DNA of 64,000 nucleotides from a virus (IMGVR_UViG_3300007616_000002:1-64000); one strand, 5' to 3'; counted from the stretch's first letter, positions 5,444-23,094 are shown. The notes: a model not told the origin generated them from the sequence alone. A program made the numbers and translations.

Positions 5444-5534
5444 GCATACACGCTGAGACAAGGCGACGGGTTACTTCGAGATTACAAATCTCATCAAGCA
5501 CTTCCCGACGCCGACTATCGCTCAGGGTGTTTGC
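5444..5534 (+). ncRNA. minimal Y-RNA-like ncRNA (bulged-helix module)
   Basis: Own TATA promoter at 5418; stems ACACGCTGAG/CTCAGGGTGT and GGCGACGGG/CCCGACGCC with internal loop ACAA/GACTATCG; TTACTTCG then hairpin GAGA-TTACAAA-TCTC. Confidence 0.7.
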
Positions 5535-5564
5535 ACGCCTCATCTCTCCCGCCCTCTTTCCGCT

Positions 5565-5746
5565 CGGGCGAGCGAGTCGGATACTTCGAATCCATTGATT
5601 GATAGCTCAGCACTGGATTAAGACCGGACAACCGGACCGCGTTGGACGGCGGAAGATACGTCCTGCGCCCAGCCTAAATACTGGGAACAGAGGCCCTGTC
5701 GGGGCGACTCGGAACAACAATCCGACCCGACACTCCTCCCGACTCC
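5565..5746 (+). ncRNA. structured ncRNA, possibly a divergent member of the same family
   Basis: GTCGGA-TACTTCG ... TCCGAC stem, D-arm-like TAGCTCAG, several hairpins, no credible ORF. Confidence 0.45.
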
Positions 5747-5899
5747 ACATTTTACCGAGCACTTTTCCGAGTGTGGGAATGGGGTTAACTTGGCACTTTT
5801 TTGAGACCGTAAAGTTTATTAGCCACCCGGCTAAAATATAACGCGTATGGGAAACAGACCCAGTATAGAGACGGTTGACACCGGGGTGAAATCACGGTG

Positions 5900-6310
5900 A
5901 TGGTCGTCTGGAGTGATGCTTCTGTGAAGAGTCGCCACGGCGCTGGCATTGGCTGGCACATACAGACATGGAGTGAATCGCAGAGTAAGCTCTTGAGCAC
6001 AGTTGATAAAGGTAATGACTACCTCTCAGACAGTTACACATCAGAAGAAGCCGAGCTTCTGGCTATTATACGAGGGGTCAAAGAATGCCTACAGAACGGA
6101 GAAGATAGTTATCTCAAAATTCGAAGTGACTGTAAACCGCTGGTAAGAAAAGTACAGGACCGAACGTATATCACCGATGACGGTCGGTACATGAAAGCTC
6201 TCACCTCTCTTCTGAGCCATGTGAAAGAGTGGGATATTAAATGGCGAAAGCGTGACAAAAACTCAGTCGCTGACAGGCAGGCTCACTACGGGTTGGAGCA
6301 ACACGCTTAA
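5900..6310 (+). CDS. rnhA: RNase HI-like protein
   Basis: WSDAS..., EAELLA, SDC, NSVADRQA catalytic pattern. Confidence 0.8.
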   Translation: MVVWSDASVKSRHGAGIGWHIQTWSESQSKLLSTVDKGNDYLSDSYTSEEAELLAIIRGVKECLQNGEDSYLKIRSDCKPLVRKVQDRTYITDDGRYMKALTSLLSHVKEWDIKWRKRDKNSVADRQAHYGLEQHA

Positions 6311-6335
6311 GTCAAAGCTTCTCTAAAGTTGGCGT

Positions 6336-6536
6336 ATGAACACAGCAGAGATTTATCGACTACATGCAGTTCCTGTCAACGGAACGGTTCGAACCGTTCA
6401 CGAAGCTGACGAACACCAGACTTTTATTTTCGGTTGCGCGTTTGATGCTGATGGGCAAATCTTAGAGCAACTATTCGAATACTACGGAGACCGTGTGGCT
6501 CTTTCTGGAGACCTTGAGACGGCTGTTTCACCGTAA
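6336..6536 (+). CDS. hypothetical protein
   Basis: Leaderless ATG after a TATA box. Confidence 0.5.
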   Translation: MNTAEIYRLHAVPVNGTVRTVHEADEHQTFIFGCAFDADGQILEQLFEYYGDRVALSGDLETAVSP

Positions 6537-6570
6537 CATTTAAGTGCCGCCCGAGGCTACGTTAGACGTA

Positions 6571-7524
6571 ATGAGTAACAAAGTGATTGTAGCCGGTAGT
6601 CGAGACATTACCGACTTTGATGCAGTCTCCAATGCTATCGAGAAGAGTGGGTTCCAGATACGCGAAATTGTCTCAGGTGCCGCGGATGGCGTAGATAGTC
6701 TTGGGGAAGAGTGGGCCGAGAATCATGCCATCGACACTGCAATTTTCGAAGCTGACTGGGATACGCACGGCAAATCCGCCGGTCCGATTCGAAACAAGCA
6801 AATGGCACAGTATGCCGACGCGGCTGTCATCGTCTGGGACGGGGAGTCCGTTGGGACGCGTTCGATGTTAGAGAAGGCACTGTACAATCGTCTCGACGTT
6901 CATGTTGAGCCGATTAAATACGACGGATTCGTTCCTAACGACCTCACTGAGAAGGAGCTTCTTCGACGCTTTCCCGAAATTAAGAAGATTGATGATGTGT
7001 GGATTCGAGCAGAGCTAATCGAAGCAATGCTCTCTGCCTATCCGGATTACAACTGGAGTACTAGCTCTTCCCGTCACCATCACCCGCCCGATGAACGTCA
7101 GGAGATGGGACAATGGCTTCACGTCAAGCGCGTGTACTCAGTATACGAAGGAATTGCTCGGGACTTCGAGCACCAGAACAAGCTATCAGCTAGAGAGATA
7201 GAACTCGGAAAGGCCGCAGTGTTCCTCCATGACATGTTCAAATATGGCATTCCGCCCAAAAAATACGACTCTGCTTACGGCAATCACGACACGTTGGCGG
7301 CAGAGTACGTCAGACAATACACTGACTTCCCTGAGCAGGTAGCACGAGCGTGTGACACGCACAATGGCGGCTGGGGCAACGATACAATCCCCTCGACACC
7401 GCTAGAACAGGCTGTTCACATGGCTGACTATATAGCGTCTCGTGACCACTCTAATCACGGGGTCTACGAGCCGGTGACGGAACTAAAGGACATGTCTGAT
7501 ATGCTCACTGAGATTGAGGAATAA
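6571..7524 (+). CDS. SLOG (YspA/DUF2493-like) domain fused to an HD hydrolase
   Basis: VIVAGSR, SGAADGVDSLGEEWA, AGPIRN; C-terminal H...FLHDMFK...H...HMADYIAS. Confidence 0.8.
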   Translation: MSNKVIVAGSRDITDFDAVSNAIEKSGFQIREIVSGAADGVDSLGEEWAENHAIDTAIFEADWDTHGKSAGPIRNKQMAQYADAAVIVWDGESVGTRSMLEKALYNRLDVHVEPIKYDGFVPNDLTEKELLRRFPEIKKIDDVWIRAELIEAMLSAYPDYNWSTSSSRHHHPPDERQEMGQWLHVKRVYSVYEGIARDFEHQNKLSAREIELGKAAVFLHDMFKYGIPPKKYDSAYGNHDTLAAEYVRQYTDFPEQVARACDTHNGGWGNDTIPSTPLEQAVHMADYIASRDHSNHGVYEPVTELKDMSDMLTEIEE

Positions 7525-7643
7525 TATGGTAGTTTATAACGCACCCAAGGTGGGACACAAAGCCACGATTAAAGAAGATGGAACAATGTCAATAGATAGC
7601 CACATCTTGTTCAAATCCGATGGTTCCAAGGAGGAGTTCGGTC

Positions 7644-8147
7644 ATGAGTAACGAAGGTGAAGTAAACACACGACGCCTTGCTTCCGAAGTCTCAGACGAG
7701 GAGTTTTCTGAGTACAGTAAACTGCCCGTGACGATTGAAGCTGTGCAGATGGACGAGCCGTTCGTCGTGGAGACGATGGAGAACAAACGCGGAGAAAAGT
7801 TATACGGGGACGAAGGAGACTACCTCATCCGAGGAGTCGAGGGAGAGCTTTACCCGTGTGACGCGAGTGTGTTTGACCAGACCTATCGAAAGGGATGCAA
7901 GTGTGACATGCGAGAGTTTCATTTCCAGCGTGTCGAAGATGAATCGGGGACCTCTGGAACCGGAATAGTTGCTGAGGGAGTCGAGTTCTCCGATGGAAGT
8001 GTGATGATTCACTGGTTCAACGAGGACAACCCCAACCTCAACACTACGTCTGATGGGTTCTCGTTCAAGCCCGGTCCTGACGGGATGGAGGATACTATAC
8101 AGGTCCACGGACACGGTGGGAAAACTGAGGTTGTATTCCATGAGTAG
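7644..8147 (+). CDS. two-domain phage protein (PGDYG-like GDYLIRGVEGELYPC domain)
   Basis: GDYLIRGVEGELYPC..VFDQTY followed by DESGTSGTGIVAEGVEF domain. Confidence 0.65.
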   Translation: MSNEGEVNTRRLASEVSDEEFSEYSKLPVTIEAVQMDEPFVVETMENKRGEKLYGDEGDYLIRGVEGELYPCDASVFDQTYRKGCKCDMREFHFQRVEDESGTSGTGIVAEGVEFSDGSVMIHWFNEDNPNLNTTSDGFSFKPGPDGMEDTIQVHGHGGKTEVVFHE

Positions 8148-8461
8148 AATTTGTGGTAACTGCGGAAAGAATCTCAAAATACCGCATGGGCGAGGAGATA
8201 TAACGAAGGTTTCTGTTTCCTTTGGTGGTTCTTTCTGCTCTCGTGAATGTGCAGTTGAATCGTGGGAAGAGCACGACTTACTTGGATGACAATGTCACTC
8301 GGACTAGCTGAGTATTATCGTGGTTTTCGTGCGGAGGGCAACGGGCGTATTCGTTCGGTTATTGACGTGCTGTTTTTCTTACTGAGTGTTTTGGCGGTGC
8401 ATGTGGTGAAGGTATTCCCTCTTCCATAATCTTTATATTCCACCCGGAGTAAGTGGTGAGT

Positions 8462-9946
8462 ATGAAAGTAAAAGGAGACTACAATACTGCTGACGTAAAG
8501 ACAGAATCTGGCGAGGATGAAGCAATCGACCAGATTCAGTCGATGGTGGATGCTGAGGCCTTTGAGGGCGACGAAGACGTAGCAATTATGCCCGACTTCC
8601 ATTTCGGTTCAGGCGCTGTTATCGGCTTCACAATGCCGTTCAAAGACCGTGTTGCCCCGGCAACAGTTGGCGTTGACATTGGGTGCGGAATGACCGCCAT
8701 TCGTCTGAACGGGAATCCCGAACTCGAAGACTGGGACCTTCGTGAAGAAGTAGACGAGGCTGTTCGTGAGCGCGTCCCCGTCGGGTTCGACGTTCACAAC
8801 CGTAGCGACTATCACATGGTGGACGACTTCCCGTGGGAAGTCTGTGCGACGAAGCTGTCGGAGTTCGAGAAGACAACCGGCTTTGACCTCGGGGGAGACA
8901 AGCCGCCTACGTTCGATGGAACTGATATTCCCCTCTACGGCAAAGAGTATTTCATCGACCTACTGAAGCGTGTCGAGTATGACTCCACACGAGCCATTAA
9001 CTCGGTCGGCACACTCGGTGGTGGGAATCACTTTATCGAGATTGGCGAAGACCCTGACGCTGTTGAAAACCCCTACTGGGCAGTCATCCACTCTGGGTCC
9101 CGAGGTCTCGGGGCGTCTATCGCCCAGTACTGGATTGACCGTGCAGGCAAGATTCGAAACGCTACCGATGTGCGTAAGCACTTCCGCTTACTCCCCAAGG
9201 AGTACCGCAAGTACCTCAAGTTCGACGTTGATGGTGTGTCAGACGAAGACTTACTTGACTGGGTGCAGGGTGGCATGGGTGAGGATTACGTGGCCTACGA
9301 ACTACTCAAAGATGAGTATAAGGAAACTGACCCCGAGCGCATCGGTGAAATCTCTACCGCACTGAAGGACGCTCTCAACGTCATCAAGACGGGTGAAGAC
9401 CCCACGGCCTACCTCGAAGAAGAAGAGGCCCACGGATACATCGTGGACATGGTGTTCGCCCAGACCTACGCACAGGAGTCGCGCAAGCAGATGGCCAAGG
9501 CTGTCGAAGATGCATGGAAAGAGCTTGGCCTCACCGCCAAAGACATGGCGTCTCGGGACTTTATCGAGTCAGTCCACAACTACATCGACTTCCGCGACGC
9601 CACCATCAGAAAGGGTGCTTGTCGGGCCCACGAAGACGAGCGTGTTATCATCCCCTTCAACATGAAATATGGCACTCTCATCTGCAAGGGCAAGGGCGAC
9701 GAAGACTGGAACAACTCAGCACCCCACGGCGCTGGTCGTGCCATGTCGCGTACCGGAGCTAAACAGAAGTTCGAGCAGGACAACTTCGAAAACGAGATGG
9801 CAGACGCAGGAGTCTATCTCTCGAAACACCCGCTTGACGAAGCTCCCGGGGCGTACAAGGACCCTGAAACAATCGAAGATGCCATCGGCCCCACTGTCGA
9901 GGTGAAACGGCGTGTAAAGCCGCTCATTTCCATCAAGGCGGAGTGA
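8462..9946 (+). CDS. rtcB: RtcB RNA ligase
   Basis: MPDFHFG, GVDIGCG, GTLGGGNHFIE, HSGSRG, HNY, SAPHGAGR, DEAPGAYK. Confidence 0.97.
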   Translation: MKVKGDYNTADVKTESGEDEAIDQIQSMVDAEAFEGDEDVAIMPDFHFGSGAVIGFTMPFKDRVAPATVGVDIGCGMTAIRLNGNPELEDWDLREEVDEAVRERVPVGFDVHNRSDYHMVDDFPWEVCATKLSEFEKTTGFDLGGDKPPTFDGTDIPLYGKEYFIDLLKRVEYDSTRAINSVGTLGGGNHFIEIGEDPDAVENPYWAVIHSGSRGLGASIAQYWIDRAGKIRNATDVRKHFRLLPKEYRKYLKFDVDGVSDEDLLDWVQGGMGEDYVAYELLKDEYKETDPERIGEISTALKDALNVIKTGEDPTAYLEEEEAHGYIVDMVFAQTYAQESRKQMAKAVEDAWKELGLTAKDMASRDFIESVHNYIDFRDATIRKGACRAHEDERVIIPFNMKYGTLICKGKGDEDWNNSAPHGAGRAMSRTGAKQKFEQDNFENEMADAGVYLSKHPLDEAPGAYKDPETIEDAIGPTVEVKRRVKPLISIKAE

Positions 9947-9947
9947 A

Positions 9948-10406
9948 ATGAGCGATTACGAATTACCCAGCGACGCCATAGAAATCCGCTCGGCCAGCAA
10001 CGACCCCGACCACGTGGACGACTTCCGGACAAAGAGCCACTACCCCGAAGAGGTGGCTGACCAGTGGGACGAGATACGAGCCGGTCAGTGTGTTTACGTT
10101 GATGAAAAAGGAAACGAGGTTGATGGATTGAGTGACGCGTATGTAGTCCTTCATCCGTCGTATGCAATGGATGGAATGCCGTCGTCTCTCTCGGGAATTG
10201 GACCTGATGACCTTCCGCCTGTCACAACTCACCATGTTGGACGGCCTGACGAGCGCATTGAAGAGCAGAAACAGACCGAGTGGAAGAACGTTTACGCCGA
10301 GTGGGTAGACCCCGACACTGGGCACGCAATGGTAACAGGGCTGGATGAAGACGGCGAAGTGGTAGACGTTGATATAAACAAGGTGTACGCTGATGACGAG
10401 GAGTGA
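9948..10406 (+). CDS. hypothetical protein coupled to rtcB
   Basis: Starts 1 nt after the rtcB stop; acidic. Confidence 0.7.
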   Translation: MSDYELPSDAIEIRSASNDPDHVDDFRTKSHYPEEVADQWDEIRAGQCVYVDEKGNEVDGLSDAYVVLHPSYAMDGMPSSLSGIGPDDLPPVTTHHVGRPDERIEEQKQTEWKNVYAEWVDPDTGHAMVTGLDEDGEVVDVDINKVYADDEE

Positions 10407-10512
10407 TGAGAAATTCGAGCAAGCTGAACGTGGTCCGTTCGGGAAGCTCCTCGAACTGATGCGACAGTGGGTTCACCAAAAGTCTTAAGACCTACCCGGT
10501 CAAAGTCAGGGT

Positions 10513-11580
10513 ATGGACGAACGTACCGCTGACAACGTTATTAGAATCGCTCAACTGTTTATTTCTGCACTCGACGGTAATGAGTACCACAACTGGGACC
10601 ATCATCGCTCTGTTGTAGAGGAAGCTGTTACTATCGCACGAAAAGAAGGCCTCTCAAACGAGGATGAGCTACTTCTACGAGTTGCCACGTGGTTCCACGA
10701 CATTGGGTACGTCAACGGCGCTGATGACCATGAGAAGCTGAGTACTGACATTGCCAACGCTGTGCTCAAGAACAACGGTGTCAAGAAAAACTCTGAGGAT
10801 AGTCGTATCATCCGGGAAGCTATTCGGGGTACTGAGATTCCGAAGCGAGAAGAGCCGGAAAACAAAGTCGCCGCTATTCTCTCTGACGCAGACCTCGCTA
10901 ATCTCGGGAAAGATTATATCACGACGACAAAGCAACGAATGTCGGTCTATGAGGAGGCAGACACGGACCTGACCGAAGCAGAGTGGAACGAGGAAATGAG
11001 CCTCCCGCTTCTTGAACATGTCGCTGAAATCGGCTACTACACCGAAACAGCACAGGAGTTGTACGGCGACCAGCTTCGACAGAATCTCGAATACCTTCGT
11101 GAAGAGGTAGAAAACGGAACCCCTGACGTTATTGTTGCAGGAACTTTTGACGTGTTCCATATCGGACATGAAAAGATGTTCGACACCGCGTTCGCTCACG
11201 GGAATCCGATTATTGGTCTCACGAGTGATGAGATGGCGTCCAAGTCACGTGAACGTGAGGTCCGTGATTACAGTAGCCGTCTATCTGGAGTCGAGATGCA
11301 GGCTTCGGAAAGAGCTAGCATGTTCCATCGTGAGTACGAGGTACAACAAATCAATTCGACGTATGCTGACGCCATGACTATTGACGCGGACAAGATTATC
11401 GTCTCTCCCGAAGAAAAGACAATCGAGCGGGCTGAAGATATTAACGATGTTCGGGAAGAGAACGGGTTAAACACACTCGATATTATCGTTGCCGAGGAAG
11501 TGCGTGCTGATGATGGCGGTCGTATCTCTTCGACGCGCATTCGGAACAACGAAATCAACTACAAAGGGAATATTCTGTAG
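10513..11580 (+). CDS. HD phosphohydrolase fused to a cytidylyltransferase-family (archaeal PPAT/CoaD-like) domain
   Basis: YHNWDH...FHDIG...DADL; AGTFDVFHIGH, GLTSD, VSPE, ISSTRIR. Confidence 0.85.
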   Translation: MDERTADNVIRIAQLFISALDGNEYHNWDHHRSVVEEAVTIARKEGLSNEDELLLRVATWFHDIGYVNGADDHEKLSTDIANAVLKNNGVKKNSEDSRIIREAIRGTEIPKREEPENKVAAILSDADLANLGKDYITTTKQRMSVYEEADTDLTEAEWNEEMSLPLLEHVAEIGYYTETAQELYGDQLRQNLEYLREEVENGTPDVIVAGTFDVFHIGHEKMFDTAFAHGNPIIGLTSDEMASKSREREVRDYSSRLSGVEMQASERASMFHREYEVQQINSTYADAMTIDADKIIVSPEEKTIERAEDINDVREENGLNTLDIIVAEEVRADDGGRISSTRIRNNEINYKGNIL

Positions 11581-11625
11581 TCACCAAAAAGTTTAAGTAC
11601 CCCCGCCCCCAAGTGAGCATGTAGT

Positions 11626-11746
11626 AACGCACGAGGGAAACGGATACTTCGACTATAGAGTCACCGCGGGTTCAAATCCCGCTCCGAGATAGCCTCTCGG
11701 GGGTGTTTGGCTAACCATATACCCCCGTTTCCCGACTCTTGGCGTT
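11626..11746 (+). ncRNA. YrlA-like Y RNA (circularly permuted tRNA mimic)
   Basis: Promoter at 11592; end stem AACGC-ACGA-GGGAAACGG / CCGTTTCCC-GACTCTTG-GCGTT; ATACTTCG; T-arm GCGGG-TTCAAAT-CCCGC precedes loop-closed acceptor-like stem TCCGAGA/TCTCGGG and a D-like hairpin. Confidence 0.75.
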
Positions 11747-11801
11747 CAGGGTGGCACCCCATAAAAAGCCCGGGAGGATGGCTCCTCTCGTCAGAAAGCT
11801 T

Positions 11802-11929
11802 GGACCCATAGCTCAGTCTGGTAGAGCGCGTATTTATACTCTGTCCTGCTATTGGCACCCCGGTGCACTATGGAGGGAGTTACTCCGATGCTAACGGCGA
11901 GGTCGATGGTTCGAGTCCATCTGGGTCCA
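11802..11929 (+). ncRNA. tRNA-like RNA (GCT anticodon) with 54-nt structured insert in the anticodon stem
   Basis: Acceptor GGACCCA/TGGGTCC, D and T arms intact; anticodon stem CG^CCG/CGGCG interrupted at 11831-11884. Confidence 0.8.
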
Positions 11930-11933
11930 CTTC

Positions 11934-12058
11934 GGGGCCGTGGTGTAGTGGCCTATCATCGACTTATCCCGCACTCGGCTATTGCCGTCTTACGGACAAC
12001 GAGCGCGGTTACTTCGTATCTGGAACGACGGACCCTCGTTCAAATCGAGGCGGCCCCA
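11934..12058 (+). ncRNA. tRNA-like RNA (CTG anticodon, Gln-like) with 52-nt structured insert in the anticodon stem
   Basis: Acceptor GGGGCCG/CGGCCCC, T arm CCTCG-TTCAAAT-CGAGG; stem CG^TCGT/ACGACG interrupted at 11962-12013. Confidence 0.8.
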
Positions 12059-12148
12059 CTAATTTTAGAGGGCATCTCCGGTAGCGATTAGTACCTTGCC
12101 AACACCACTCCCACAAACTTTAATATCCCCCCGACACTTGTGTTGGAT

Positions 12149-13042: not shown

Positions 13043-13175
13043 GAATTAGTACTGCCAAACTTTGTAAAGCTTTTTCCTGAAACCTTTTATAAGATTCAAG
13101 ATTTTCCTTGACGGAGTAGGTAAACACACTCCGAGGCCAGCCACACGCGTGTGTTTGTATTTCTTTCAGAATAGC

Positions 13176-14943: not shown

Positions 14944-15843
14944 ATGGAAACGTATCCCAAGTTACGCTATCCCGGGGAAGAGGCCACACAAGGCCTGTTC
15001 GCCAGTGGTTCTATTGTTATACAGGAGAAGTTAGATGGTTCGAACTTTCGGTTTACGTGGGAACCCGATACTGGATTCACGTTCGGGTCTCGGCGGACTG
15101 AAGGAGAGGGTCTTCACCGTGACCAGTTTGCCGACGCTATCGAGTACGTCGAAGAGAACGTCAGTGAAGTCGAGCTACGGAGCCAGCACAACGAGTTCGG
15201 TAAGCTAGTCTACTTCGGTGAGTTCATGAACCCGCATACCATCTCGTATGACTGGGAGGGAACGCCCGACTTCATCGGCTTCGACGTATGGTCTGAGGAC
15301 GCGCAGAACTTCCTCACAACGGGTCTTGTCCAATCCCTGTTCGATGGCCTCGACCTTCCCACTGCGCCGATTGTGACGACTGTGAGCGCCGATGAGTGGG
15401 ACGACTACGACTTTGAGTGCCCCGAGTCCGAATACTACGACGGAAAGGCTGAGGGTGTGGTGTTCAAGAATCATACGACCGACACTTACGGAAAGTATGT
15501 TCGAGAAGACTTCAAGGAGAAGAGCAAGCAGACCTTCGGACCCAGCAAAAAGTCCTCACTCAACGATACGGAGCGAATGGTCTACGCCTACATCACCGAG
15601 GCCCGTATTAGGAAAGCAATATATAGGCTTCAAGATGAAGAAGGTAAAAAGATTAGAATGGAGATGATGGCTGAAGGACTTCCGCAAGAAGTTATTTCGG
15701 ATTTTGTAGATGAGGAAGGGTTTAACGTGTTTATGAATGAGAATTGGAAAATAGGAATTGGAGAATTCCGGTCAATAGTATCTAGTAGATGTGCTGAAGT
15801 TCTTCGTCGTGAAGTAGATAAAAAAGTGAAGGAGGAGCTATAA
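14944..15843 (+). CDS. ATP-dependent RNA ligase (Rnl2-like)
   Basis: QEKLDGSNFR, FGSRR, FGEF, FIGFDV, EGVVFK, KYVREDFKE nucleotidyltransferase motifs. Confidence 0.85.
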   Translation: METYPKLRYPGEEATQGLFASGSIVIQEKLDGSNFRFTWEPDTGFTFGSRRTEGEGLHRDQFADAIEYVEENVSEVELRSQHNEFGKLVYFGEFMNPHTISYDWEGTPDFIGFDVWSEDAQNFLTTGLVQSLFDGLDLPTAPIVTTVSADEWDDYDFECPESEYYDGKAEGVVFKNHTTDTYGKYVREDFKEKSKQTFGPSKKSSLNDTERMVYAYITEARIRKAIYRLQDEEGKKIRMEMMAEGLPQEVISDFVDEEGFNVFMNENWKIGIGEFRSIVSSRCAEVLRREVDKKVKEEL

Positions 15844-16646
15844 TGCCTATAAAAATAACTTGTGATGAGTGTGGGGATGAATTTACTGTTCCACCCTCGA
15901 ATTCCGAGCAGAAATATTGCTCTCGTGAATGTTATTTATACAAAAATAATCCTAATAAAGAAGAAAAAGTTTCAGTCAATTGTGACTGGTGTGATAGTAA
16001 TATCCAAAGAATACCGTCATTAGTAGAACGAACAGAAAATAACTTTTGTGACCAAAAGTGTTCTTCCAAATGGAGGTCTGAGAACTGGACTGGTGAACGT
16101 TCACCGACATATAAAGACGCATCTGTCGAATGCACGTGTGAATGGTGTGGTTCAGATTATGAAGAATGGAGTACTCGAAAAGAACGTACTCGATTTTGCT
16201 CTCTTGAGTGTCGGAATAAATGGCAATCTTCACGTGATGGACCCGAGCACCCACTGTACAAAGGTGGTAGAAAAGAATTTGGTGAAAATTGGAAAGAAAT
16301 GAGAAGAGAAGCATTATCACATTACGGAGAAGAATGCAGTCTATGTGGAGCAGATTCATCTAATTCACTGATTGATGTTCATCATATAATACCAAGATGG
16401 CTATGGGACAATGTTGATGATGCAGACAAACTATGGAATCTTACTCCACTTTGTAGGTCTCACCATATGAAAGTTGAACGCCAAACTGAGAAAGTTATTG
16501 AGAAAATGGCCAAAGAGGAGGCCGAGAATATCTTCATGGAGGAGAACTGGGAAATCGACACGGGTGAAACACTCTCCATCGTCTCGAACCGGTGCTCCGA
16601 GGTCCTGCGTCGGATGATTGACCAGAAAATCAAGGAGGAGCTATGA
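15843..16646 (+). CDS. HNH homing endonuclease with Zn-finger repeats, fused to a displaced ligase C-terminus
   Basis: Repeated CxxC...FCS..C, DVHHIIP...NLTPLCRSHH; AT-rich; last ~45 aa resemble the ligase C-terminus. Confidence 0.88.
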   Translation: MPIKITCDECGDEFTVPPSNSEQKYCSRECYLYKNNPNKEEKVSVNCDWCDSNIQRIPSLVERTENNFCDQKCSSKWRSENWTGERSPTYKDASVECTCEWCGSDYEEWSTRKERTRFCSLECRNKWQSSRDGPEHPLYKGGRKEFGENWKEMRREALSHYGEECSLCGADSSNSLIDVHHIIPRWLWDNVDDADKLWNLTPLCRSHHMKVERQTEKVIEKMAKEEAENIFMEENWEIDTGETLSIVSNRCSEVLRRMIDQKIKEEL

Positions 16647-17695: not shown

Positions 17696-17719
17696 CTACG
17701 AGTTTGTTAAGAAGAAAGG

Positions 17720-17735
17720 TTTAAGTACCACCCGA
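17720..17735 (+). promoter_or_regulatory. representative viral promoter TTTAAGTACCACCCG (dozens of copies)
   Basis: TATA + CC(A/C)CCCG also at ~387, 1936, 5418, 8432, 10484, 11592, 12119, 14908, 23360, 25546, 27767, 38969, 46914, 47863, 53083. Confidence 0.85.
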
Positions 17736-17752
17736 GACTATTTTCGGGCACA

Positions 17753-18211: not shown

Positions 18212-19103
18212 CGGACTATCTCTCGAAGTAACCGCTGAGTCTGTGTTTGTTGTGGACTACACGGAAGAGGAGGTTAAAGAACTTATCGAAGCAGGTCGAA
18301 TCTCAGATGAGGAAGAGCTTATCAAAGAGACGAAGGGACAGCTTCGAGAAGAGATTAATCATCAGGCTAATGGTCGTGAGCTAAAGTCTGTTGACGTAAC
18401 TGCTGAGGTGGTCGATGATGAGTGAACGATATGAGTGTCCCGAGTGTGGTTCTGTCGTAACACTCGACCTTGCTGGAGGGGGAACAGCCAACTTCGGAAC
18501 GGCGTATTGCTCCGGTCGAGAAGAAGACCCGCACACAGCTACACTAATGGAGAGTGAATAAGATGGGTGATATTACTATTACGACGACTGTTCATGCATT
18601 GACTCAGAAGTCCCATGACAAAGAAGAACTACAAGAGCAGATGGACCGGTTGGGACTCGATAATATGGATGAATTTATCGAAATGGCTGAAACATCTGTC
18701 GAGTCACATCTTCACGAAAATGCGTTTGAGGAAGACGCACTCGAACTACTTGAAGTAACCGCAGAGGTGGAAGAAAGTGACGAGTCTGCCTGACGAATTA
18801 ATCGAGTATCACTTCGTTCTGAAGGACGGTGAGTCCTTCAAGGTCGATGCGGAGTACGTCGAGGTCGAGTACGGTGAGTCTGAGAAGCCCCATATCATGG
18901 CCGAGGTGAAGAAGTGGACGCTCTCGACCAAGACGTACTCACGTGAGATAACTGAAAGAGACGTAGAATCAGTGATGGCAGTTGTAAAAGACGAAGAGCG
19001 TGACAACGCGAAGTCGCTCATCAGCGGTAAAGACACGTAAACACACGCGCTACTCTTCTCAAACAGCGAAAGGTTTATTACCCTCCCAACCCTCGTACTG
19101 TGT

Positions 19104-19592
19104 ATGAAGTTCAATCAGACCAAGAAGTCTATTGCTGAGAGAACTCGGACGACCAATCACGAGGGTGGGGAGGCGTTCGAACCCGAAGATGTTCGACTTG
19201 GGCTTTATAAAGTCGTTATCAACAATCTTCTTGAAGACTCGTTCTACGAGTCCGACGAGGAGAGCTTTGACAAGGTGAAGTCACGTTTTGAGGAGTGTGT
19301 CATCGAGCACCCCGAGTTCGTGCTGAAGCTCGCCTACTGGGCCCGTGAAGAGGCGTACCTTCGGCAGATTCCCCAGCTACTGCTCGTGTTTGCGGCTAAC
19401 AACGAGCACACGAAGGGGTACGTCCGTGAGTACTCTACTGGAGTCATGCAACGGGCTGACGAGCCGCTGGAGGTGCTTGCAATGCAGGTGGAACTCTTTG
19501 GGACGAGTATTCCGAACCCTCTCCAGAAGGGTATCGAGGACGCACTGCACACGTTCGATGAGTACGAAGTGTCAAAATGGGATACAGCATGA
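19104..19592 (+). CDS. TROVE/Ro60 N-terminal half
   Basis: TTNHEGGEAF, DSFYES, PEFVLKLAYWAR...LR, QRADE, IPNPLQKGI...FDEYEVSKW. Confidence 0.9.
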   Translation: MKFNQTKKSIAERTRTTNHEGGEAFEPEDVRLGLYKVVINNLLEDSFYESDEESFDKVKSRFEECVIEHPEFVLKLAYWAREEAYLRQIPQLLLVFAANNEHTKGYVREYSTGVMQRADEPLEVLAMQVELFGTSIPNPLQKGIEDALHTFDEYEVSKWDTA

Positions 19593-20374
19593 GCTGGAAT
19601 AAAGTTTCCAAGTCAGAGTGTACCGGTGCTCTGGTTCAGGCGAAGCAGGAGTTGGGTGAGTCGCCCAGCGTGTCCCAGTACCGTGAGTTGGACCTACAAC
19701 CAACAGTCTACACCATGCAAAATAAATTCGGTTCGTGGAACAAGGCGAAAAGGGCCGCTGGCCTGCAAGCTTGCACCAACCGTGTTGTGAGTGATGACGA
19801 GATAAGCATTGCCATCAACCTGTACGCAGGTGGACTGTCAGTCCGGGAGGTTGCTGATGAGTTAGAAGTCCAACCACAGACAATCCATTACCACCTTCAG
19901 AATGAGGGGGTTACCGAGTCCATCTCTGAGGCTCTAAAAGGACGTGACCATAGCTGGGGAGACAAGATTTCGCAATCTCTGGAAGGTCATGAGGTTAGCG
20001 AATCAACTCGTGAGAAGATTTCAGAGACCCATACCGGGAAAGAGCCTTGGAACAAGGGAAAAACGAAGAAATCCCACCCAGACGAAATCGACTACGGGCG
20101 CTCAGGTGAAGCGCACCATGCTTGGAAGGGTGGTATTAGTAGTGAGTTGAACCGACTGCGACAAACACCTGAGTACAAGGAATGGCGTAAGTCAGTGTTC
20201 GAGCGTGACAACTGGACATGCCAAGATTGCGGTCAGAGAGGCGGTGAATTGAACGCGCATCATATCAAATCATTTGCGGAGAACGAAGACCTTCGGTTTG
20301 ACGTAGATAACGGAGAGACACTATGCAAGGAACATCATATCGAGCGACACATGACGGAGGAGAGAAATGAGTAA
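19589..20374 (+). CDS. HNH homing endonuclease (HEG repeat + HTH + NUMOD3-like) splitting TROVE
   Basis: KFGSWNKAK, HTH, REKISETHTGK, WRKSVFERDNWTCQDCG..LNAHHI...NGETLCKEHH. Confidence 0.9.
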   Translation: MSWNKVSKSECTGALVQAKQELGESPSVSQYRELDLQPTVYTMQNKFGSWNKAKRAAGLQACTNRVVSDDEISIAINLYAGGLSVREVADELEVQPQTIHYHLQNEGVTESISEALKGRDHSWGDKISQSLEGHEVSESTREKISETHTGKEPWNKGKTKKSHPDEIDYGRSGEAHHAWKGGISSELNRLRQTPEYKEWRKSVFERDNWTCQDCGQRGGELNAHHIKSFAENEDLRFDVDNGETLCKEHHIERHMTEERNE

Positions 20375-21374
20375 CAAGAGCCGTGAGTTCAGCTACCGAG
20401 ACCTGATGAATCTCGTCCATCCCAAGCCCCGAGACGACCTTCGGAAAGAGCTATTCAAGCGGATTGCACTCGGTGAACTGGACGACCACCCCGAGGTCGA
20501 GCCGCTGAAACAGCACCGGACGTGGGAGGATACCATGTCGAACGACGATGACGACCGCTCGGAGGCAGAAAAGTTCCACGACCGGCTAGACGATATGGGC
20601 CTCTTCGCCAAGATTCGGAACGTCCGGAACATGCTTGAGGCTGGGCTGGAGCCCGAGGTAATCCTCACAGACGAGGACCTCGATTCTGTTCCCCACGTCA
20701 AGCTGTTCCCGTTCCGCTTCTACCAAGCGTACAAGGCTGTAAAAGACGCTGGGTACCGCTCGACGTATCTCGATGTGTGGTTCGAGAACGCCATCGACCG
20801 GTCTGTCGAAAACGTTCCCGAGGAGTTCGGAGACACCTATGTAGCGGCTGACACCTCCGGGTCGATGACGTGGACGCCCATCTCCGATAACTCGGACCTT
20901 ACCCCGATGGAGATAGGGGCGCTCTTCGGCGCTGTGTGCGGTTCGAAGGGCGCAAAGGTGTCTGCCTTCGCAAGTACCCACGAAGACGTTCAGTTCCACG
21001 CTGGCGAGCCTGTGCTCTCGATTCAGGACCGCATCAAGGAGGCCCCCGCAGGCGGCGGGACACACGGGTACAAAGTTCTCAAGACACTCCGTCAACGAGG
21101 AGAGAGTTGGGAGAACGTCGCACTCTTCACGGACACCCAACTTTGGGGCGGCTCGCTGAAGGAGGAGTGGGACAAGTACATGCAGGAGGTCAATCCCAAC
21201 GCGAGCCTCTACATCGTAGACCTCGCAAGTTACGGCGACCTCGTGGTTCCCGAGGGGTACGATTCGGTCTATCGAGTGTCGGGTTGGAATGAGAACATCG
21301 TAAAGCACATCCGGTACGCATCGGAAACGGATGCCGCGATTCAGGAAGTCGAATCTGTCGGCTCTCCTGAGTAG
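20367..21374 (+). CDS. TROVE/Ro60 C-terminal half with vWA domain
   Basis: RDLMNLVHPKP, TWE, IRNVRNM, FPFRFYQAY, MIDAS DTSGSM, GGGT, FTDTQ, VSGWNE. Confidence 0.9.
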   Translation: MSNKSREFSYRDLMNLVHPKPRDDLRKELFKRIALGELDDHPEVEPLKQHRTWEDTMSNDDDDRSEAEKFHDRLDDMGLFAKIRNVRNMLEAGLEPEVILTDEDLDSVPHVKLFPFRFYQAYKAVKDAGYRSTYLDVWFENAIDRSVENVPEEFGDTYVAADTSGSMTWTPISDNSDLTPMEIGALFGAVCGSKGAKVSAFASTHEDVQFHAGEPVLSIQDRIKEAPAGGGTHGYKVLKTLRQRGESWENVALFTDTQLWGGSLKEEWDKYMQEVNPNASLYIVDLASYGDLVVPEGYDSVYRVSGWNENIVKHIRYASETDAAIQEVESVGSPE

Positions 21375-21412
21375 TCGGAACACTTTTAACCCATCCGTTG
21401 CAATAAACGGAT

Positions 21413-22120
21413 ATGAGTTCAATCGAGAGCGTAGAAAACGTTGAAGAGCGAAAGGTAATTGCGGTTGATTTTGACAAAACCCTCACGACTGGAGAGGGTG
21501 CCGACTTTTGGGAAGACGACGAGAAAGAGTATCCCAACGAAGAAGTTATTGACTGGGTGAAAGAGATGTATCACAACGGACACGTCATCATTATCCATAC
21601 CGCCCGACAGTGGGAACAGGCTTCTACTGTCGAATCGTACTTAGTCAAGTGGAACGTTGAGTACCATGGACTACGCTGTAACAAGACCGGTGCTGACCTC
21701 TATGTTGACGATAAGGCTGAAAACGTCGAGAAGGTATCAAATTCGAATGAGGAAACTTCTGTAGTCGGAAAAGAGTCAGTCTCTGAGAAAAAGTGTGATA
21801 TATGCTCAGAGAAGTTCTCGACGGACGATAATCGGACAGTGTGTAGTAAACACGGTGCTTTCTCAACTACCGAAAAGGAAGATGAAGACGGAGAAGACAA
21901 ATACATTGGAGAGGTGACATTCTTCAATGATACTGGTGGTTATGGGTTTGTCGAAGCAAAGGGTCTCGATAAAGAGGTGTTCTTCCATATGGAAGACCAC
22001 GATTTTCCGGAACCGGAAGAAGGATACAAAGCCGTGTTCGAGGTCGAACAGCACGAAAAGGGTCCGCGGGTTGAGAAGTTCCACGAGTTAAACACCAACG
22101 TTTACTTCACGAAAGAGTAG
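21413..22120 (+). CDS. HAD-family phosphatase fused to a C-terminal cold-shock domain
   Basis: AVDFDKTL, HTAR, LYVDDK; GEVTFFNDTGGYGFVE...EVFFH...GPR. Confidence 0.85.
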   Translation: MSSIESVENVEERKVIAVDFDKTLTTGEGADFWEDDEKEYPNEEVIDWVKEMYHNGHVIIIHTARQWEQASTVESYLVKWNVEYHGLRCNKTGADLYVDDKAENVEKVSNSNEETSVVGKESVSEKKCDICSEKFSTDDNRTVCSKHGAFSTTEKEDEDGEDKYIGEVTFFNDTGGYGFVEAKGLDKEVFFHMEDHDFPEPEEGYKAVFEVEQHEKGPRVEKFHELNTNVYFTKE

Positions 22121-22158
22121 TCGAAATACTTTTAACCCGCCCGGTCATCTTATCGGGT

Positions 22159-23094
22159 ATGAGTGAACCCCACCATTGGCCGCTTCATGCTGTCAAAGAA
22201 TTTGAAAACCAGCATGATATAGACGTTATCGAGATTCGAGACTTTGGCTCCCGTTCGAACAATATGGATGGTCCCGACTCCGACAGGGATGCAATGTTCA
22301 TATTCGACCAGCCCGCACTGGCGCACAAAACACTCGGTAACGAGGTCGACACGATTCATACCGAAAAGTATGACGTTGACTTCCACGGATGGAATCTTCG
22401 GAAATTCGCCAGCCTGCTCTCCGATTCGAACCCGCAGGCGCTCGATTTCCTTAACTCAGAGATTCAGTACCATACCGCAGAGCCGAAACACGCCATCAGT
22501 GAGCAACTTGAAGACCTTCGACTGTACGCAAATCGGAACTTCAATCCGATTCGACTCTACATGCACAACCGGTCGAAGGCCAAATCGAACTACGAGAAGT
22601 ACGTTCTCCGAAAACTCATCGGACAGAACGGAGAGAGTGGCCAGTATATCATCGAAGGAGAAACGGATGAAAAATACGAGGTCACACCCAAAGGGGAAGA
22701 CGCAAACCCGTACAACAGCATAGGAAAGAATAACGTCGGTGACGGAGAGAAGTTCCGACTAGCAACCACTGACCGGACAATTCGGCGTAACCTGAAGGTC
22801 ATTCAAGTGGTTCTCTATGCCCGTCACATCCGCAGAAGTAAGTCGCTTCCGCAGATGGACTTTGAGGAGTTCCTTGAGCACAGTGTCGATTCTACCATTC
22901 AAGAGCGCGTCATGGACCTGCTGGAGATGAAACGAAAGGGTGAGGGAGATATGGAAGCAGGAAACCCCTTCGAAGACCTCATTGAGAGTGAAATCAACTA
23001 CGACGTTGACCATCAGAACCTCAACCAAGCAGGTATAGACCGTGAGATAGTCAATCAGTTCATCCTCGACATAGACGGTCTGCTCTACCGGTAA
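22159..23094 (+). CDS. RlaP-like Pol-beta nucleotidyltransferase
   Basis: FGSRSNNMDGPDSDRD, GWNLRKF..LL..SNPQALDFLNS. Confidence 0.8.
   Translation: MSEPHHWPLHAVKEFENQHDIDVIEIRDFGSRSNNMDGPDSDRDAMFIFDQPALAHKTLGNEVDTIHTEKYDVDFHGWNLRKFASLLSDSNPQALDFLNSEIQYHTAEPKHAISEQLEDLRLYANRNFNPIRLYMHNRSKAKSNYEKYVLRKLIGQNGESGQYIIEGETDEKYEVTPKGEDANPYNSIGKNNVGDGEKFRLATTDRTIRRNLKVIQVVLYARHIRRSKSLPQMDFEEFLEHSVDSTIQERVMDLLEMKRKGEGDMEAGNPFEDLIESEINYDVDHQNLNQAGIDREIVNQFILDIDGLLYR

What the first reader, a model, noticed from the sequence alone, without database searches (positions are those of the whole stretch)
5444..23094. Candidate viral Ro60-Y RNA RNA-repair system in an archaeal virus
Seen: within ~18 kb lie TROVE/Ro60 (19104-21374), RtcB, an Rnl2-like ligase, an RlaP-like nucleotidyltransferase and a HAD-CSD phosphatase (the last two directly after TROVE), two HD proteins and four ncRNAs. 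The ncRNAs share a module: [outer stem]-AC(A/G/T)A-[~9-bp stem]-(T/A)TACT(T/C)CG opposite [stem']-G(A)CT(A/C)T(T/C)G-[outer stem']. The stem sequences differ between copies but pairing is kept. Established: Ro60 binds a bulged helix in Y RNAs, and bacterial rsr, Y RNA and rtcB genes form RNA-repair operons responding to tRNA damage. Inference: this virus encodes a full Ro/Y/ligase machine, probably countering host tRNA-cleaving defences. I know of no described Y RNAs in archaeal viruses.
Basis: partly seen in the sequence, partly recalled or inferred. Interest (0 to 1): 0.95.

Follow-up and report, generated by a model that had tools for sequence, protein, structure and literature searches.

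The report
Ro60 partner RNAs in a halovirus
A virus of salt-loving archaea encodes the RNA-surveillance ring protein Ro60 (here cut in two by a selfish endonuclease gene), RNA-repair enzymes and five small RNAs with one conserved "handle"; the same handle lies beside Ro60 genes in haloarchaea and phages and marks these RNAs as archaeal relatives of bacterial Y RNAs, two of them built into otherwise normal tRNAs.

Summary
The genes named are present. TROVE/Ro60 is split into two intact halves by an HNH homing endonuclease. Five RNAs, not four, carry the module.

The family-wide module is: outer stem, (G)NCGA, 9-bp stem, WU(A/C)CUUCR, then stem', a 7-8-nt U-rich loop and outer stem'.

- **Independent detection.** A covariance model built only from other loci finds window Y1 (E 8e-7), Y3 (E 0.003) and the 5' part of Y2 (E 0.03) as its top three hits.
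- **Link to TROVE.** In 55 TROVE loci from GTDB genomes, all 139 hits lie upstream of TROVE on its strand (45 of 49 haloarchaeal loci). HGTV-1, which has TROVE, has the RNAs. Three haloviruses that have RtcB but no TROVE have none.
- **Structure.** All 18 base pairs covary.
- **Relation to YrlA.** Y3 has YrlA architecture. Phage RNAs with the same motif hit Rfam YrlA at E 3e-6.

These are therefore YrlA/YrlB-type Y RNAs of haloarchaeal viruses and mobile islands. I found none described in print.

The new variant is the handle inserted at the D/anticodon junction of complete tRNAs. There is no BHB splice motif, yet excision in silico restores cloverleafs.

Ro60 binding, splicing and a counter-defence role are untested. 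This scan has noted similar Ro60 "handle" RNA arrays on other DNA.

The parts
5418..5425 (+). TATA-like box TTTAAGTA ahead of Y1; the unit Y1-Y2 ends at a T-run at 5797-5802
   Evidence: Read from the sequence. The same TTTAAGTACCCCCG box precedes Y3. TTTAAGTA boxes precede the HGTV-1 copies and a related TTTATTA box precedes the window's TROVE gene. No transcript data.
5444..5535 (+). Y1: minimal handle RNA (YrlB-like). Outer stem, ACAA, GGCGACGGG, UUACUUCG, small apical hairpin, CCCGACGCC, GACUAUCG, outer stem'.
   Evidence: Fold -37 kcal/mol, z -5.3. Model R1, built without window sequences, scores 34.9 bits, E 7.7e-7 at 5449-5529.
5556..5768 (+). Y2: handle RNA with a large (~150 nt) apical domain that is not tRNA-like. 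5' strand 5562-5588 (GCUCGG-GCGA-GCGAGUCGG-AUACUUCG); 3' strand 5739-5760 (CCGACUCC-ACAUUUUA-CCGAGC).
   Evidence: Fold -79.7 kcal/mol, z -4.2, keeps both handle helices. R1 finds the 5' part at 17.9 bits, E 0.027.
5897..6310 (+). RNase H-like protein
   Evidence: PF13456, E 2.5e-12
6544..7524 (+). SLOG (YAcAr) + HD phosphohydrolase protein
   Evidence: PF10686, E 1e-13; PF01966, E 4e-7
8453..9946 (+). RtcB RNA ligase (joins 3'-phosphate or 2',3'-cyclic phosphate to 5'-OH)
   Evidence: PF01139, E 1.5e-62; about 67% nucleotide identity to HGTV-1 RtcB
10513..11580 (+). HD phosphohydrolase fused to a cytidylyltransferase-like nucleotidyltransferase
   Evidence: PF01966, E 2.9e-8; PF01467, E 7.5e-13; PHROG phosphohydrolase
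11592..11599 (+). TATA-like box TTTAAGTA ahead of the unit Y3-tRNA-tRNA
   Evidence: Read from the sequence
11612..11760 (+). Y3: YrlA-like RNA. The handle (ACGA, GGGAAACGG/CCGUUUCCC, AUACUUCG, GACUCUUG) carries a permuted tRNA-like body: a 4-bp stem with a tetraloop, T arm GCGGGUUCAAAUCCCGC, a closed acceptor hairpin and a D-like arm.
   Evidence: Fold z -3.1. Full-length but weak Rfam YrlA match, 14.7 bits, E 1.4. R1 scores 21.6 bits, E 0.0028. Aligns with 19 TROVE-linked RNAs.
11802..11929 (+). tRNA with the handle, closed by a hairpin, inserted after position 28 (insert 11831-11884). The anticodon loop is AUGCUAA (GCU) on a body with a short variable loop.
   Evidence: Rfam tRNA 46.1 bits with a 67-nt insertion. 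ARAGORN finds a 75-nt cloverleaf only after the insert is removed in silico.
11934..12061 (+). tRNA-Gln(CUG) with the handle inserted after position 27 (insert 11962-12013)
   Evidence: ARAGORN finds a 74-nt cloverleaf only after the insert is removed. Counterpart of HGTV-1 gene 136.
14944..15843 (+). ATP-dependent RNA ligase (Rnl2-like family PF09414), followed by an HNH endonuclease at 15843-16646
   Evidence: PF09414, E 2e-21; HNH
19104..19592 (+). Ro60/TROVE N half (162 aa)
   Evidence: PF05731, 23.9 bits. 76% identical to residues 1-162 of the intact 491-aa homologue P0002.
19577..20374 (+). HNH/NUMOD3 homing endonuclease that splits the TROVE gene. It overlaps the stop codon of the N half and the start codon of the C half.
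   Evidence: PF18780, PF07460, PF01844. The frames are shown.
20367..21374 (+). Ro60/TROVE C half with the vWA/MIDAS domain (335 aa)
   Evidence: PF05731 22.5 bits, PF25045 18.8 bits. 70% identical to residues ~161-491 of P0002. DxSGS motif present.
21413..22120 (+). HAD (PNKP-like) phosphatase fused to a cold-shock domain
   Evidence: PF00313, PF08282, PF25109; PHROG polynucleotide kinase and cold shock protein
22159..23094 (+). RlaP nucleotidyltransferase (RNA repair pathway Pol-beta family)
   Evidence: PF10127, E 1.4e-26

Best explanation
The five RNAs are Y RNAs of the bacterial and phage YrlA/YrlB kind, encoded by a haloarchaeal tailed virus.

**The handle.** It consists of a terminal stem, an asymmetric internal loop (NCGA opposite a 7-8-nt U-rich strand), a 9-bp stem and the single-stranded WUACUUCR. 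I take it to be the docking site for the virus's two-piece Ro60 (TROVE + vWA) ring.

**The variable end.** It presents a small hairpin (Y1), a large unique domain (Y2), a closed tRNA mimic (Y3) or a whole tRNA (the two interrupted tRNAs).

**Proposed working, by analogy with Rsr-Y RNA particles.** The RNA gates the Ro60 ring and tethers it to tRNA-shaped substrates or tRNA-handling enzymes. The neighbouring end-healing and sealing enzymes then repair or discard damaged tRNAs during infection. These enzymes are RtcB, the Rnl2-like ligase, the HAD phosphatase-CSD protein, RlaP and the HD hydrolases.

**Shown:** the RNA family, its structure, its linkage to TROVE genes and its likeness to YrlA.
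**Inferred:** transcription, Ro60 binding, and the repair or counter-defence role.
For: 1. **Independent detection.** Model R1 was built from 21 handles of other loci. It finds Y1, Y3 and the 5' part of Y2 as the three best hits in 64 kb on both strands.
2. **Linkage to TROVE.**
   - In 55 GTDB-genome TROVE loci (475 kb), all 139 hits at E<=0.01 are upstream of TROVE on its strand, mostly within 600 nt. 45 of 49 haloarchaeal loci have them.
   - In 1.6 Mb of mixed loci, all 54 hits are on the TROVE strand.
   - The 8-mer occurs at 0.9/kb in the 1.2 kb upstream of TROVE and at 0.118/kb elsewhere, which is the random expectation.
   - Full modules are 17-25 times enriched.
3. **Control genomes.** HGTV-1 (TROVE 45.5% identical) has one copy ending 8 nt before the TROVE start codon, plus others. 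HCTV-1, HCTV-5 and HCTV-16 have RtcB but no TROVE, and have no R1 hit and only background motif counts.
4. **Neighbours.** In a haloarchaeal island the only conserved neighbours of the RNAs are TROVE and tRNAs. There is no RtcB, RlaP or HAD-CSD downstream.
5. **Structure.** All 18 pairs have changes on both sides. 90.6% of cells pair against 59.5% in shuffles and 33-54% when partners are slid.
6. **YrlA likeness.**
   - Y3 carries a T arm, a closed acceptor hairpin and a D-like arm on a long stem.
   - It has the YUAY (UUAC/AUAC) motif and a GNCGA motif, as described for YrlA.
   - Phage RNAs upstream of TROVE with the same UUACUUCR motif hit Rfam YrlA at 36 bits, E 3.3e-6, and 33.6 bits.
7. 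**The protein looks functional.** Both TROVE halves are 70-76% identical to an intact homologue, with no residues lost.
Against: - No copy reaches Rfam's YrlA gathering score (69 bits). The window's best is 14.7 bits.
- The window's own copies lie 7-13.6 kb from TROVE, not beside it.
- Three of the five have ACAA or ACUA where the family has NCGA.
- No transcript data exist; no RNA run holds this DNA.
- Many haloarchaeal loci look like one mobile island, so those counts are not independent events.
- The alignment used for covariation was fitted to the model.
- Two copies sit in tRNAs like introns, which fits a processing role as well as a binding role.
- Whether a two-piece Ro60 assembles is unknown.
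Confidence: 0.7

Rival explanations
1. The handle is a tRNA-processing element, not primarily a Ro60 site. It would act as an intron in the two interrupted tRNAs and as a leader-trailer helix in circularly permuted tRNA precursors. An endonuclease would cut it out and RtcB would seal the ends. On this view it lies near TROVE only because both sit in tRNA gene clusters.
For: - Removing the inserts in silico restores canonical cloverleafs with perfect anticodon stems.
- The same holds for dozens of class B copies elsewhere, which have normal 7-nt anticodon loops (Thr UGU, Ile UAU, Arg UCU, Lys UUU, Gln CUG and others).
- Class A RNAs have the topology of permuted tRNAs, a possibility raised for YrlA by Wang et al. 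(10.1101/312249).
- RtcB is encoded nearby.
Against: - No bulge-helix-bulge motif that would give a correct tRNA exists at any junction.
- Y1, Y2 and many family members carry no tRNA part.
- Y3 has a tetraloop where the anticodon loop should be.
- The handle has conserved sequence, not only structure.
- It also lies beside TROVE in bacterial phages, and Wang et al. (10.1101/312249) note that no splicing endonuclease has been reported in bacteria.
- TROVE-less haloviruses that have RtcB and tRNAs lack it.
- In HGTV-1 a tRNA-free copy lies directly upstream of TROVE.
Confidence: 0.13
2. The handle binds another protein, or is a cis-regulatory leader. Candidates are L7Ae at the possible tandem G.A loop, the cold-shock-domain phosphatase, or RlaP. 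In HGTV-1 and in the islands it precedes the TROVE coding sequence, so it could be a leader that autoregulates TROVE.
For: - The HGTV-1 copy ends 8 nt before the TROVE ATG.
- The last RNA in the haloarchaeal islands ends about 190 nt before TROVE.
- The internal loop could form tandem G.A pairs (read from the sequence).
- A CSD protein and RlaP follow TROVE in this window.
Against: - The window's copies are far from TROVE and have their own promoter-like boxes and T-runs.
- Tandem arrays of 3-6 copies do not fit a single leader.
- RlaP and CSD are absent from the island examined while TROVE is constant.
- A leader that binds Ro60 would still be a Ro60 site.
Confidence: 0.08
3. The elements are decayed tRNA genes or chance repeats with no function of their own.
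For: tRNA clusters of haloarchaea are reported to hold 'tRNA pseudogenes' (PMC6333295).
Against: - Compensatory changes occur at all 18 pairs.
- The 8-mer is conserved between haloarchaeal and bacterial-phage loci.
- Strand and position relative to TROVE are strict.
- Fold z-scores are -3 to -5.
Confidence: 0.02

Closest known systems
YrlA / YrlB Y RNAs with Rsr (bacterial Ro60), including phage copies (Chen et al. 2014, PMC4201824; Wang et al. 2018, 10.1101/312249; Rfam RF02553)
   Same: - Encoded with a TROVE gene and often with RtcB.
- A long stem formed by the two RNA ends.
- A GNCGA-type motif on the 5' strand and a YUAY motif.
- An 8-nt 3' loop strand (YrlA AAAACUUG; here GACUCUUG).
- A tRNA-like domain with a T arm, closed acceptor hairpin and D arm (Y3).
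- A shorter partner without the tRNA part (Y1, like YrlB).
- Several Y RNAs per genome.
   Different: - Host domain: an archaeal virus and haloarchaeal islands.
- Rfam's model scores only 14.7 bits.
- The handle has an extra outer stem and a strictly conserved WU(A/C)CUUCR.
- The TROVE protein is in two pieces.
- Some copies are topological isomers in which the handle is a closed hairpin inside a complete tRNA with open ends, whereas YrlA lacks a free 3' end.
Metazoan Y RNA - Ro60 particle (Stein et al. 2005, as cited in PMC4201824)
   Same: Modular design: a Ro60-binding stem formed by the RNA ends plus a variable effector loop. The 5'-strand motif in many family members (G-UCGA-G) resembles GGUCCGA.
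   Different: No bulged-C helix of the metazoan type. The window copies have ACAA, ACGA or GCGA. The tRNA-like cargo is not a metazoan feature.
Archaeal tRNA introns and circularly permuted tRNA genes (bulge-helix-bulge splicing, sealed by RtcB)
   Same: An insert within the anticodon stem of tRNAs whose removal restores the tRNA. Permuted topology of class A RNAs. RtcB in the same genome.
   Different: - No BHB motif at the junctions.
- Position 26-28 rather than 37/38.
- Conserved primary sequence.
- Linkage to TROVE.
- Many copies have no tRNA at all.
Haloarchaeal tRNA gene clusters with a TROVE gene (Morgado & Vicente 2019, PMC6333295) and HGTV-1 (TROVE gene 129 in record NC_021328; tRNA metabolism genes in PMC8651126)
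   Same: The same genomic neighbourhood: tRNA arrays, TROVE, homing endonucleases, and a link to mobile elements or viruses.
   Different: Those papers report the protein gene, 'tRNA pseudogenes' and introns. They do not report a Y-like RNA family or handle-bearing tRNAs. HGTV-1 gene 136 is annotated 'tRNA-Asp (gtc) + intron', but reads here as tRNA-Gln(CUG) carrying the handle.

Membership tests
YrlA-type Y RNA (Rfam RF02553; Chen et al. 2014) | Reaches the Rfam gathering score (69 bits) | tested here: not met
   Window Y3 scores 14.7 bits, E 1.4, full length. No hit at gathering score in the window or in 18 related loci. Phage RNAs with the same motif reach 36 and 33.6 bits, E 3e-6 and 2e-5.
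YrlA-type Y RNA (Rfam RF02553; Chen et al. 2014) | Encoded next to a Ro60/TROVE gene | tested here: met
   Met for the family: all 139 hits are upstream of TROVE on its strand in 45 of 49 haloarchaeal genome loci, and HGTV-1 has a copy ending 8 nt before TROVE. The window copies are 7-13.6 kb upstream, on the same strand, in the same cluster.
YrlA-type Y RNA (Rfam RF02553; Chen et al. 2014) | Stem formed by the 5' and 3' ends that carries the GNCGAAN0-1G motif (the putative Rsr site) | tested here: inconclusive
   The terminal stem is present and covaries. The family consensus is (G)NCGA followed by G or A. The window copies read GCGA (Y2), ACGA (Y3), ACAA (Y1, tRNA-Gln) and ACUA (tRNA GCU). 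Infernal instead aligns YrlA's CGAAUGCUU with CGGWUACUU, so the register is ambiguous.
YrlA-type Y RNA (Rfam RF02553; Chen et al. 2014) | tRNA-like domain: T arm, closed acceptor-like stem, D arm; conserved YUAY | tested here: met
   Y3 has GCGGGUUCAAAUCCCGC, the hairpin UCCGAGA-UAGCC-UCUCGGG, a D-like arm, and AUAC at the YUAY place. Y1 and Y2 lack this domain and resemble YrlB.
YrlA-type Y RNA (Rfam RF02553; Chen et al. 2014) | Physically bound by Ro60; tRNA-type modifications | not testable with these tools
   Needs RIP, EMSA and modification mapping.
Ro60 / TROVE protein | TROVE domain followed by a vWA domain with a MIDAS motif, about 500 aa in one chain | tested here: inconclusive
   The domains are present and colinear: PF05731 at 23.9 and 22.5 bits, PF25045 at 18.8 bits. 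Identity to the intact 491-aa P0002 is 70-76%, and the DxSGS motif is kept. However, the chain is split at ...SKWDTA* / MSNKSREFSYRDL by an HNH gene, and assembly of the halves is untested.
Archaeal BHB tRNA intron | Bulge-helix-bulge motif (3-nt bulges flanking a 4-bp helix) at both splice sites | tested here: not met
   A scan of 7 handle-bearing tRNAs found no BHB whose excision gives a tRNA. That strict scan also missed the relaxed motif of the window's ordinary intron tRNA at 38250-38367, so a very relaxed motif is not excluded.
Circularly permuted tRNA gene | 3' half before 5' half, processed into a decoding tRNA with a 7-nt anticodon loop | tested here: not met
   Y3 has the permuted order but a 4-bp stem with tetraloop AUAG in place of the anticodon arm. 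Some relatives in other loci do have 7-nt anticodon-like loops.

The most novel reading that the evidence does not exclude
Y RNAs and tRNAs interconvert in these elements. On this reading the Ro60 handle is a removable cassette at the D/anticodon hinge.
- The handle-bearing tRNAs are real precursors. Elsewhere most of them carry UNU anticodons, which read ANA codons.
- They would be matured by a splicing route that does not use BHB and is sealed by RtcB. Ro60 would act as chaperone or gatekeeper, and the excised handle would be released as a mini Y RNA.
- That would be a living intermediate for the origin of Y RNAs from tRNA introns or permuted tRNAs.
Probability: 0.15. Interest if true: 0.85.

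Novelty: new variant of a known kind. Interest (0 to 1): 0.62.

Why it matters
- **Domain of life.** Ro60-Y RNA particles have been studied in animals and in a few bacteria. Candidate Y RNAs for Archaea and their viruses would extend the system to the third domain.
- **A culturable model.** HGTV-1 on Halogranum carries the same RNAs. So do several type strains with the island, for example Haloarcula argentinensis DSM 12282 and Halorubrum ezzemoulense DSM 17463.
- **An open question made testable.** The handle sits at the same hinge in closed tRNA mimics and in complete tRNAs. This bears on the question raised by Wang et al. 2018 of whether YrlA-type RNAs derive from, or are processed into, tRNAs.
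- **Annotation.** It suggests what some 'tRNA pseudogenes' and odd 'introns' annotated in haloarchaeal tRNA clusters and in HGTV-1 may be.
- **Model coverage.** Rfam's YrlA model misses a large share of the TROVE-linked RNAs.

Tried and rejected
- **Rfam.** At gathering score it finds only tRNAs in the window and in 18 related loci. At E<=10 over 4000-25000 it finds no Y RNA family.
- **Single-protein locus search.** A search of IMG/VR with the TROVE C half alone found nothing. An alignment was needed.
- **BHB.** Checked by eye and by script; no usable motif. The script is strict and also missed the relaxed motif of the control intron tRNA.
- **My first pairing criterion was too loose.** With 8 of 9 plus 5 of 6 pairs, reversed-stem controls found partners almost as often (132 against 168 of 640). 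Only scores of 14-15 separate real from control. The covariance model replaced this criterion.
- **Known self-cleaving ribozymes** (hammerhead, hairpin, twister, pistol, hatchet). I compared the conserved cores from memory and saw no resemblance. This was not tested formally beyond the Rfam scans.
- **C/D or H/ACA guide RNA.** The boxes are absent.
- **Sequencing runs.** No RNA holder is listed; three DNA metagenome runs hold the stretch.
- **Model R1 is centred on haloarchaeal sequences.** It does not recover most bacterial-phage copies. For those, the link rests on the motif-plus-stem scan and on the YrlA hits.
- **Literature.** Searches of the held library found no description of Y RNAs in archaea or archaeal viruses. 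Subscription journals and the supplements of Chen et al. 2014 could not be read.

Full report
**What is in the window.** The window is the first 64 kb of a 76.7-kb IMG/VR virus record. It carries 14 or more tRNA genes and an RtcB about 67% identical in DNA to that of the haloarchaeal myovirus HGTV-1.

Between 5.4 and 23.1 kb, all on the + strand, Pfam finds the following:
- an RNase H-like protein;
- a SLOG-HD protein;
- RtcB;
- an HD-nucleotidyltransferase fusion;
- a primase-polymerase;
- an RNA ligase of family PF09414, followed by an HNH gene;
- TROVE;
- a HAD(PNKP-like)-cold-shock-domain protein;
- RlaP.

The gene inventory of the finding is correct.

**The TROVE gene is split.**
- ORF 19104-19592 aligns to residues 1-162 of an intact 491-aa homologue (76% identity).
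- ORF 20367-21374 aligns to residues ~161-491 (70% identity), including the vWA DxSGS motif.
- An HNH/NUMOD3 endonuclease ORF (19577-20374, another frame) overlaps the stop of the first and the start of the second.
- No residues are lost, and no non-coding room is left for an intron core.

This is a free-standing homing-endonuclease split, and both halves look functional.

**The RNAs.** The 8-mer WTACTYCG is over-represented in the window: 18 occurrences against 7.1 expected. Five copies lie in two intergenic clusters. Each cluster follows a TTTAAGTA box and ends at a T-run.
- **Y1** (5444-5535): handle plus a small hairpin.
- **Y2** (about 5556-5768): handle plus a 150-nt domain. Its long-range helices are kept in the minimum-energy fold, z -4.2.
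- **Y3** (11612-11760): handle plus a permuted tRNA-like body.
- **Two tRNAs** (11802-11929 and 11934-12061): here the handle is circularly permuted. Its outer stem is closed by a loop, and its open end is joined to the tRNA just inside the anticodon stem.

Y1 and Y3 fold much better than shuffles, with z -5.3 and -3.1.

**Is the handle a family, and is it tied to TROVE?**

HGTV-1 has an intact TROVE gene that is 45.5% identical. It carries:
- one handle RNA ending 8 nt before that gene's start codon;
- another handle RNA 3 kb upstream;
- next to that one, a handle-bearing tRNA, annotated 'tRNA-Asp (gtc) + intron' but with the anticodon loop AUCUGGA, like the window's tRNA-Gln(CUG).

I collected TROVE loci from three sources, using an alignment of 28 TROVE proteins:
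- 80 from IMG/VR, mostly bacterial phages (23-38% identity);
- 80 from metagenomes, about 60 of them hypersaline (40-64% identity);
- 55 from GTDB species genomes, 49 of them haloarchaea, on chromosomes and plasmids.

A motif-plus-stems scan gave these results:
- The 8-mer occurs at 0.9/kb in the 1.2 kb upstream of TROVE on its strand. Elsewhere it occurs at 0.118/kb, which equals the random expectation of 0.122/kb.
- Full modules are 17-25 times enriched.
- Perfect 15/15 pairings number 21, against 0 for reversed-stem controls.

I then built covariance model R1 from 21 handles, none from this window.
- **In the window**, with filters off, the three best hits are Y1 (34.9 bits, E 7.7e-7), Y3 (21.6 bits, E 0.0028) and the 5' part of Y2 (17.9 bits, E 0.027). 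The next hit has E 0.27.
- **In the 55 genome loci**, which were not used for training, all 139 hits at E<=0.01 lie upstream of TROVE on its strand. Typically there are three tandem RNAs within 600 nt. 45 of 49 haloarchaeal loci have them.
- **In whole HGTV-1**, it finds three copies, one of them new (45703-45790, minus strand).
- **In the TROVE-less but RtcB-bearing haloviruses** HCTV-1, HCTV-5 and HCTV-16, it finds none. Motif counts agree.

On the model-fitted alignment of 54 hits, all 18 base pairs show changes on both sides. 90.6% of cells pair, against 59.5% in shuffles and 33-54% when partners are slid.

In one haloarchaeal island, the genes after TROVE are small unknowns, an HTH protein and an Orc1/Cdc6. 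None is RtcB, RlaP or HAD-CSD. TROVE is therefore the constant protein neighbour.

Caveats:
- Many haloarchaeal loci look like copies of one mobile island, so the counts are not independent events.
- The covariation alignment leans towards the model.

**Relation to known Y RNAs.** Chen et al. 2014 define YrlA by four features (PMC4201824):
- a stem formed by the RNA ends, with GNCGAAN0-1G;
- a conserved YUAY;
- T, acceptor-like (closed) and D arms;
- often a further 'V' stem-loop before the T arm.

Y3 has this layout. It gives a full-length but weak match to Rfam YrlA (14.7 bits, E 1.4).

RNAs upstream of TROVE in bacterial-phage loci carry the same UUACUUCR, a GYGW/GCGA 5' junction and a U-rich 3' loop. 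Two of them in locus L049 hit YrlA at 36 bits (E 3.3e-6, full length) and 33.6 bits. A 20-sequence alignment joins Y3 to both groups, with the CUUC core of the 8-mer and the T arm invariant.

The window's RNAs are therefore divergent members of the YrlA/YrlB kind, which Rfam's model does not reach.

Which part contacts Ro60 is not settled. The NCGA junction resembles GNCGA(A), and in many copies (G-UCGA-G) it resembles the metazoan GGUCCGA. Infernal instead aligns YrlA's CGAAUGCUU with the stem end plus WUACUU.

**The handle-bearing tRNAs.**
- Removing 11831-11884 and 11962-12013 in silico turns two sequences that ARAGORN rejects into canonical cloverleafs: a 75-nt tRNA with anticodon GCU and a 74-nt tRNA-Gln(CUG).
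- The GCU tRNA has a short variable loop, unlike any tRNA-Ser body. The window also has a normal tRNA-Ser(GCU) at 47086-47171. Its decoding role is therefore doubtful.
- In other loci the same construction recurs 1.5-3 kb upstream of TROVE. After excision these read Thr(UGU) in most cases, or Ile(UAU), Arg(UCU) or Lys(UUU), on nearly the same body. Leu(CAG) and Asn(GUU) also occur.
- I found no bulge-helix-bulge motif that would give a correct tRNA, so the standard archaeal splicing signal is missing.

Class A RNAs (ends at the handle, acceptor stem closed) and class B RNAs (handle closed, acceptor open) are topological isomers. In both, the handle joins a tRNA body at the same D/anticodon hinge. 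Whether class B is spliced or keeps the handle as a fifth arm cannot be told from sequence. Wang et al. 2018 raised the idea that YrlA-like RNAs might be processed like permuted tRNAs (10.1101/312249).

**What is known and what is new.**
- Already in print or in the records:
  - Ro60 with Y RNAs and RtcB in bacteria and phages (PMC4201824);
  - TROVE annotated in the HGTV-1 record;
  - HGTV-1's tRNA metabolism genes, including RtcB (PMC8651126);
  - a TROVE gene in 20 of 29 archaeal tRNA clusters, along with 'tRNA pseudogenes' (PMC6333295);
  - Ro60 genes in Asgard viruses and Borgs.
- Not found in the held library: Y RNAs in archaea or archaeal viruses, or Ro60-handle-bearing tRNAs.
- This scan's own notes record similar TROVE-linked 'handle' RNA arrays on other DNA, including one archaeal virus. 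My phage-locus results agree with them.

**Verdict.**
- The Y-RNA reading is supported by comparative evidence (about 0.7).
- The repair or counter-defence mechanism is a reasonable inference from the gene set but is untested.
- Novelty: a new variant of a known kind.

Noticed in passing
window 19104-21374: The Ro60/TROVE gene is split into two intact, in-frame halves by an HNH/NUMOD3 homing endonuclease ORF. That ORF overlaps the N-half stop and the C-half start. HGTV-1 has an HNH gene directly after its intact TROVE. Short TROVE C-half-sized proteins (P0023, P0057) in the homologue list may be further splits.
   Followed up: partly
L107, L111, L114, L140, L173, L196 and about 25 other loci (e.g. 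L107:6660-6830): Handle-bearing tRNAs on nearly identical bodies (acceptor GGGACGG or GGGGCGG) carry anticodons UGU, UAU, UCU or UUU in different genomes. All of these are UNU anticodons, which read ANA codons. This looks like anticodon switching on a single scaffold.
   Followed up: partly
L003 15441-15572 (HGTV-1 record 70440-70571, gene 136): This gene is annotated 'tRNA-Asp (gtc) + intron'. The anticodon loop reads AUCUGGA (Gln CUG), and the 'intron' is the Ro60 handle at the D/anticodon junction. The annotation is probably wrong.
   Followed up: partly
HGTV-1 record NC_021328 45703-45790 (minus strand): A further handle RNA (R1 41.8 bits, E 2.4e-8) lies far from the TROVE gene and was not in the training set.
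   Followed up: no
window 38250-38367: A tRNA with an intron at the usual 37/38 place. Its motif is relaxed (central helix CUUG/CAAG, a 3-nt bulge on one side only), so my strict BHB scan missed it.
   Followed up: no
L119:3144-3281, L090:9721-9852, L142:794-923 and relatives: In many haloarchaeal class A RNAs, the 3' strand of the anticodon-like arm repeats the 5' strand of the 9-bp handle stem (GGAGCG or GGAGCC). Stem' could therefore pair with either. This may be a structural switch.
   Followed up: no
handle internal loop, e.g. window 11631-11634 with 11734-11741: The 5' ...CGA next to the 9-bp stem and the 3' GA... next to stem' could form tandem sheared G.A pairs, a kink-turn-like feature. 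This is read from the sequence only.
   Followed up: no
L167-L212 (GTDB genomes; e.g. L183 = Salinibaculum litoreum chromosome 745306-754817): About 48 haloarchaeal species carry a conserved island made of a tRNA array, three tandem handle RNAs and TROVE, on chromosomes and plasmids. In the island examined, an Orc1/Cdc6 gene lies nearby, which suggests a mobile or proviral element.
   Followed up: partly
window 15843-16646: A second HNH endonuclease gene starts at the last base of the RNA ligase ORF (15843). Homing endonucleases crowd this RNA-repair cluster.
   Followed up: no
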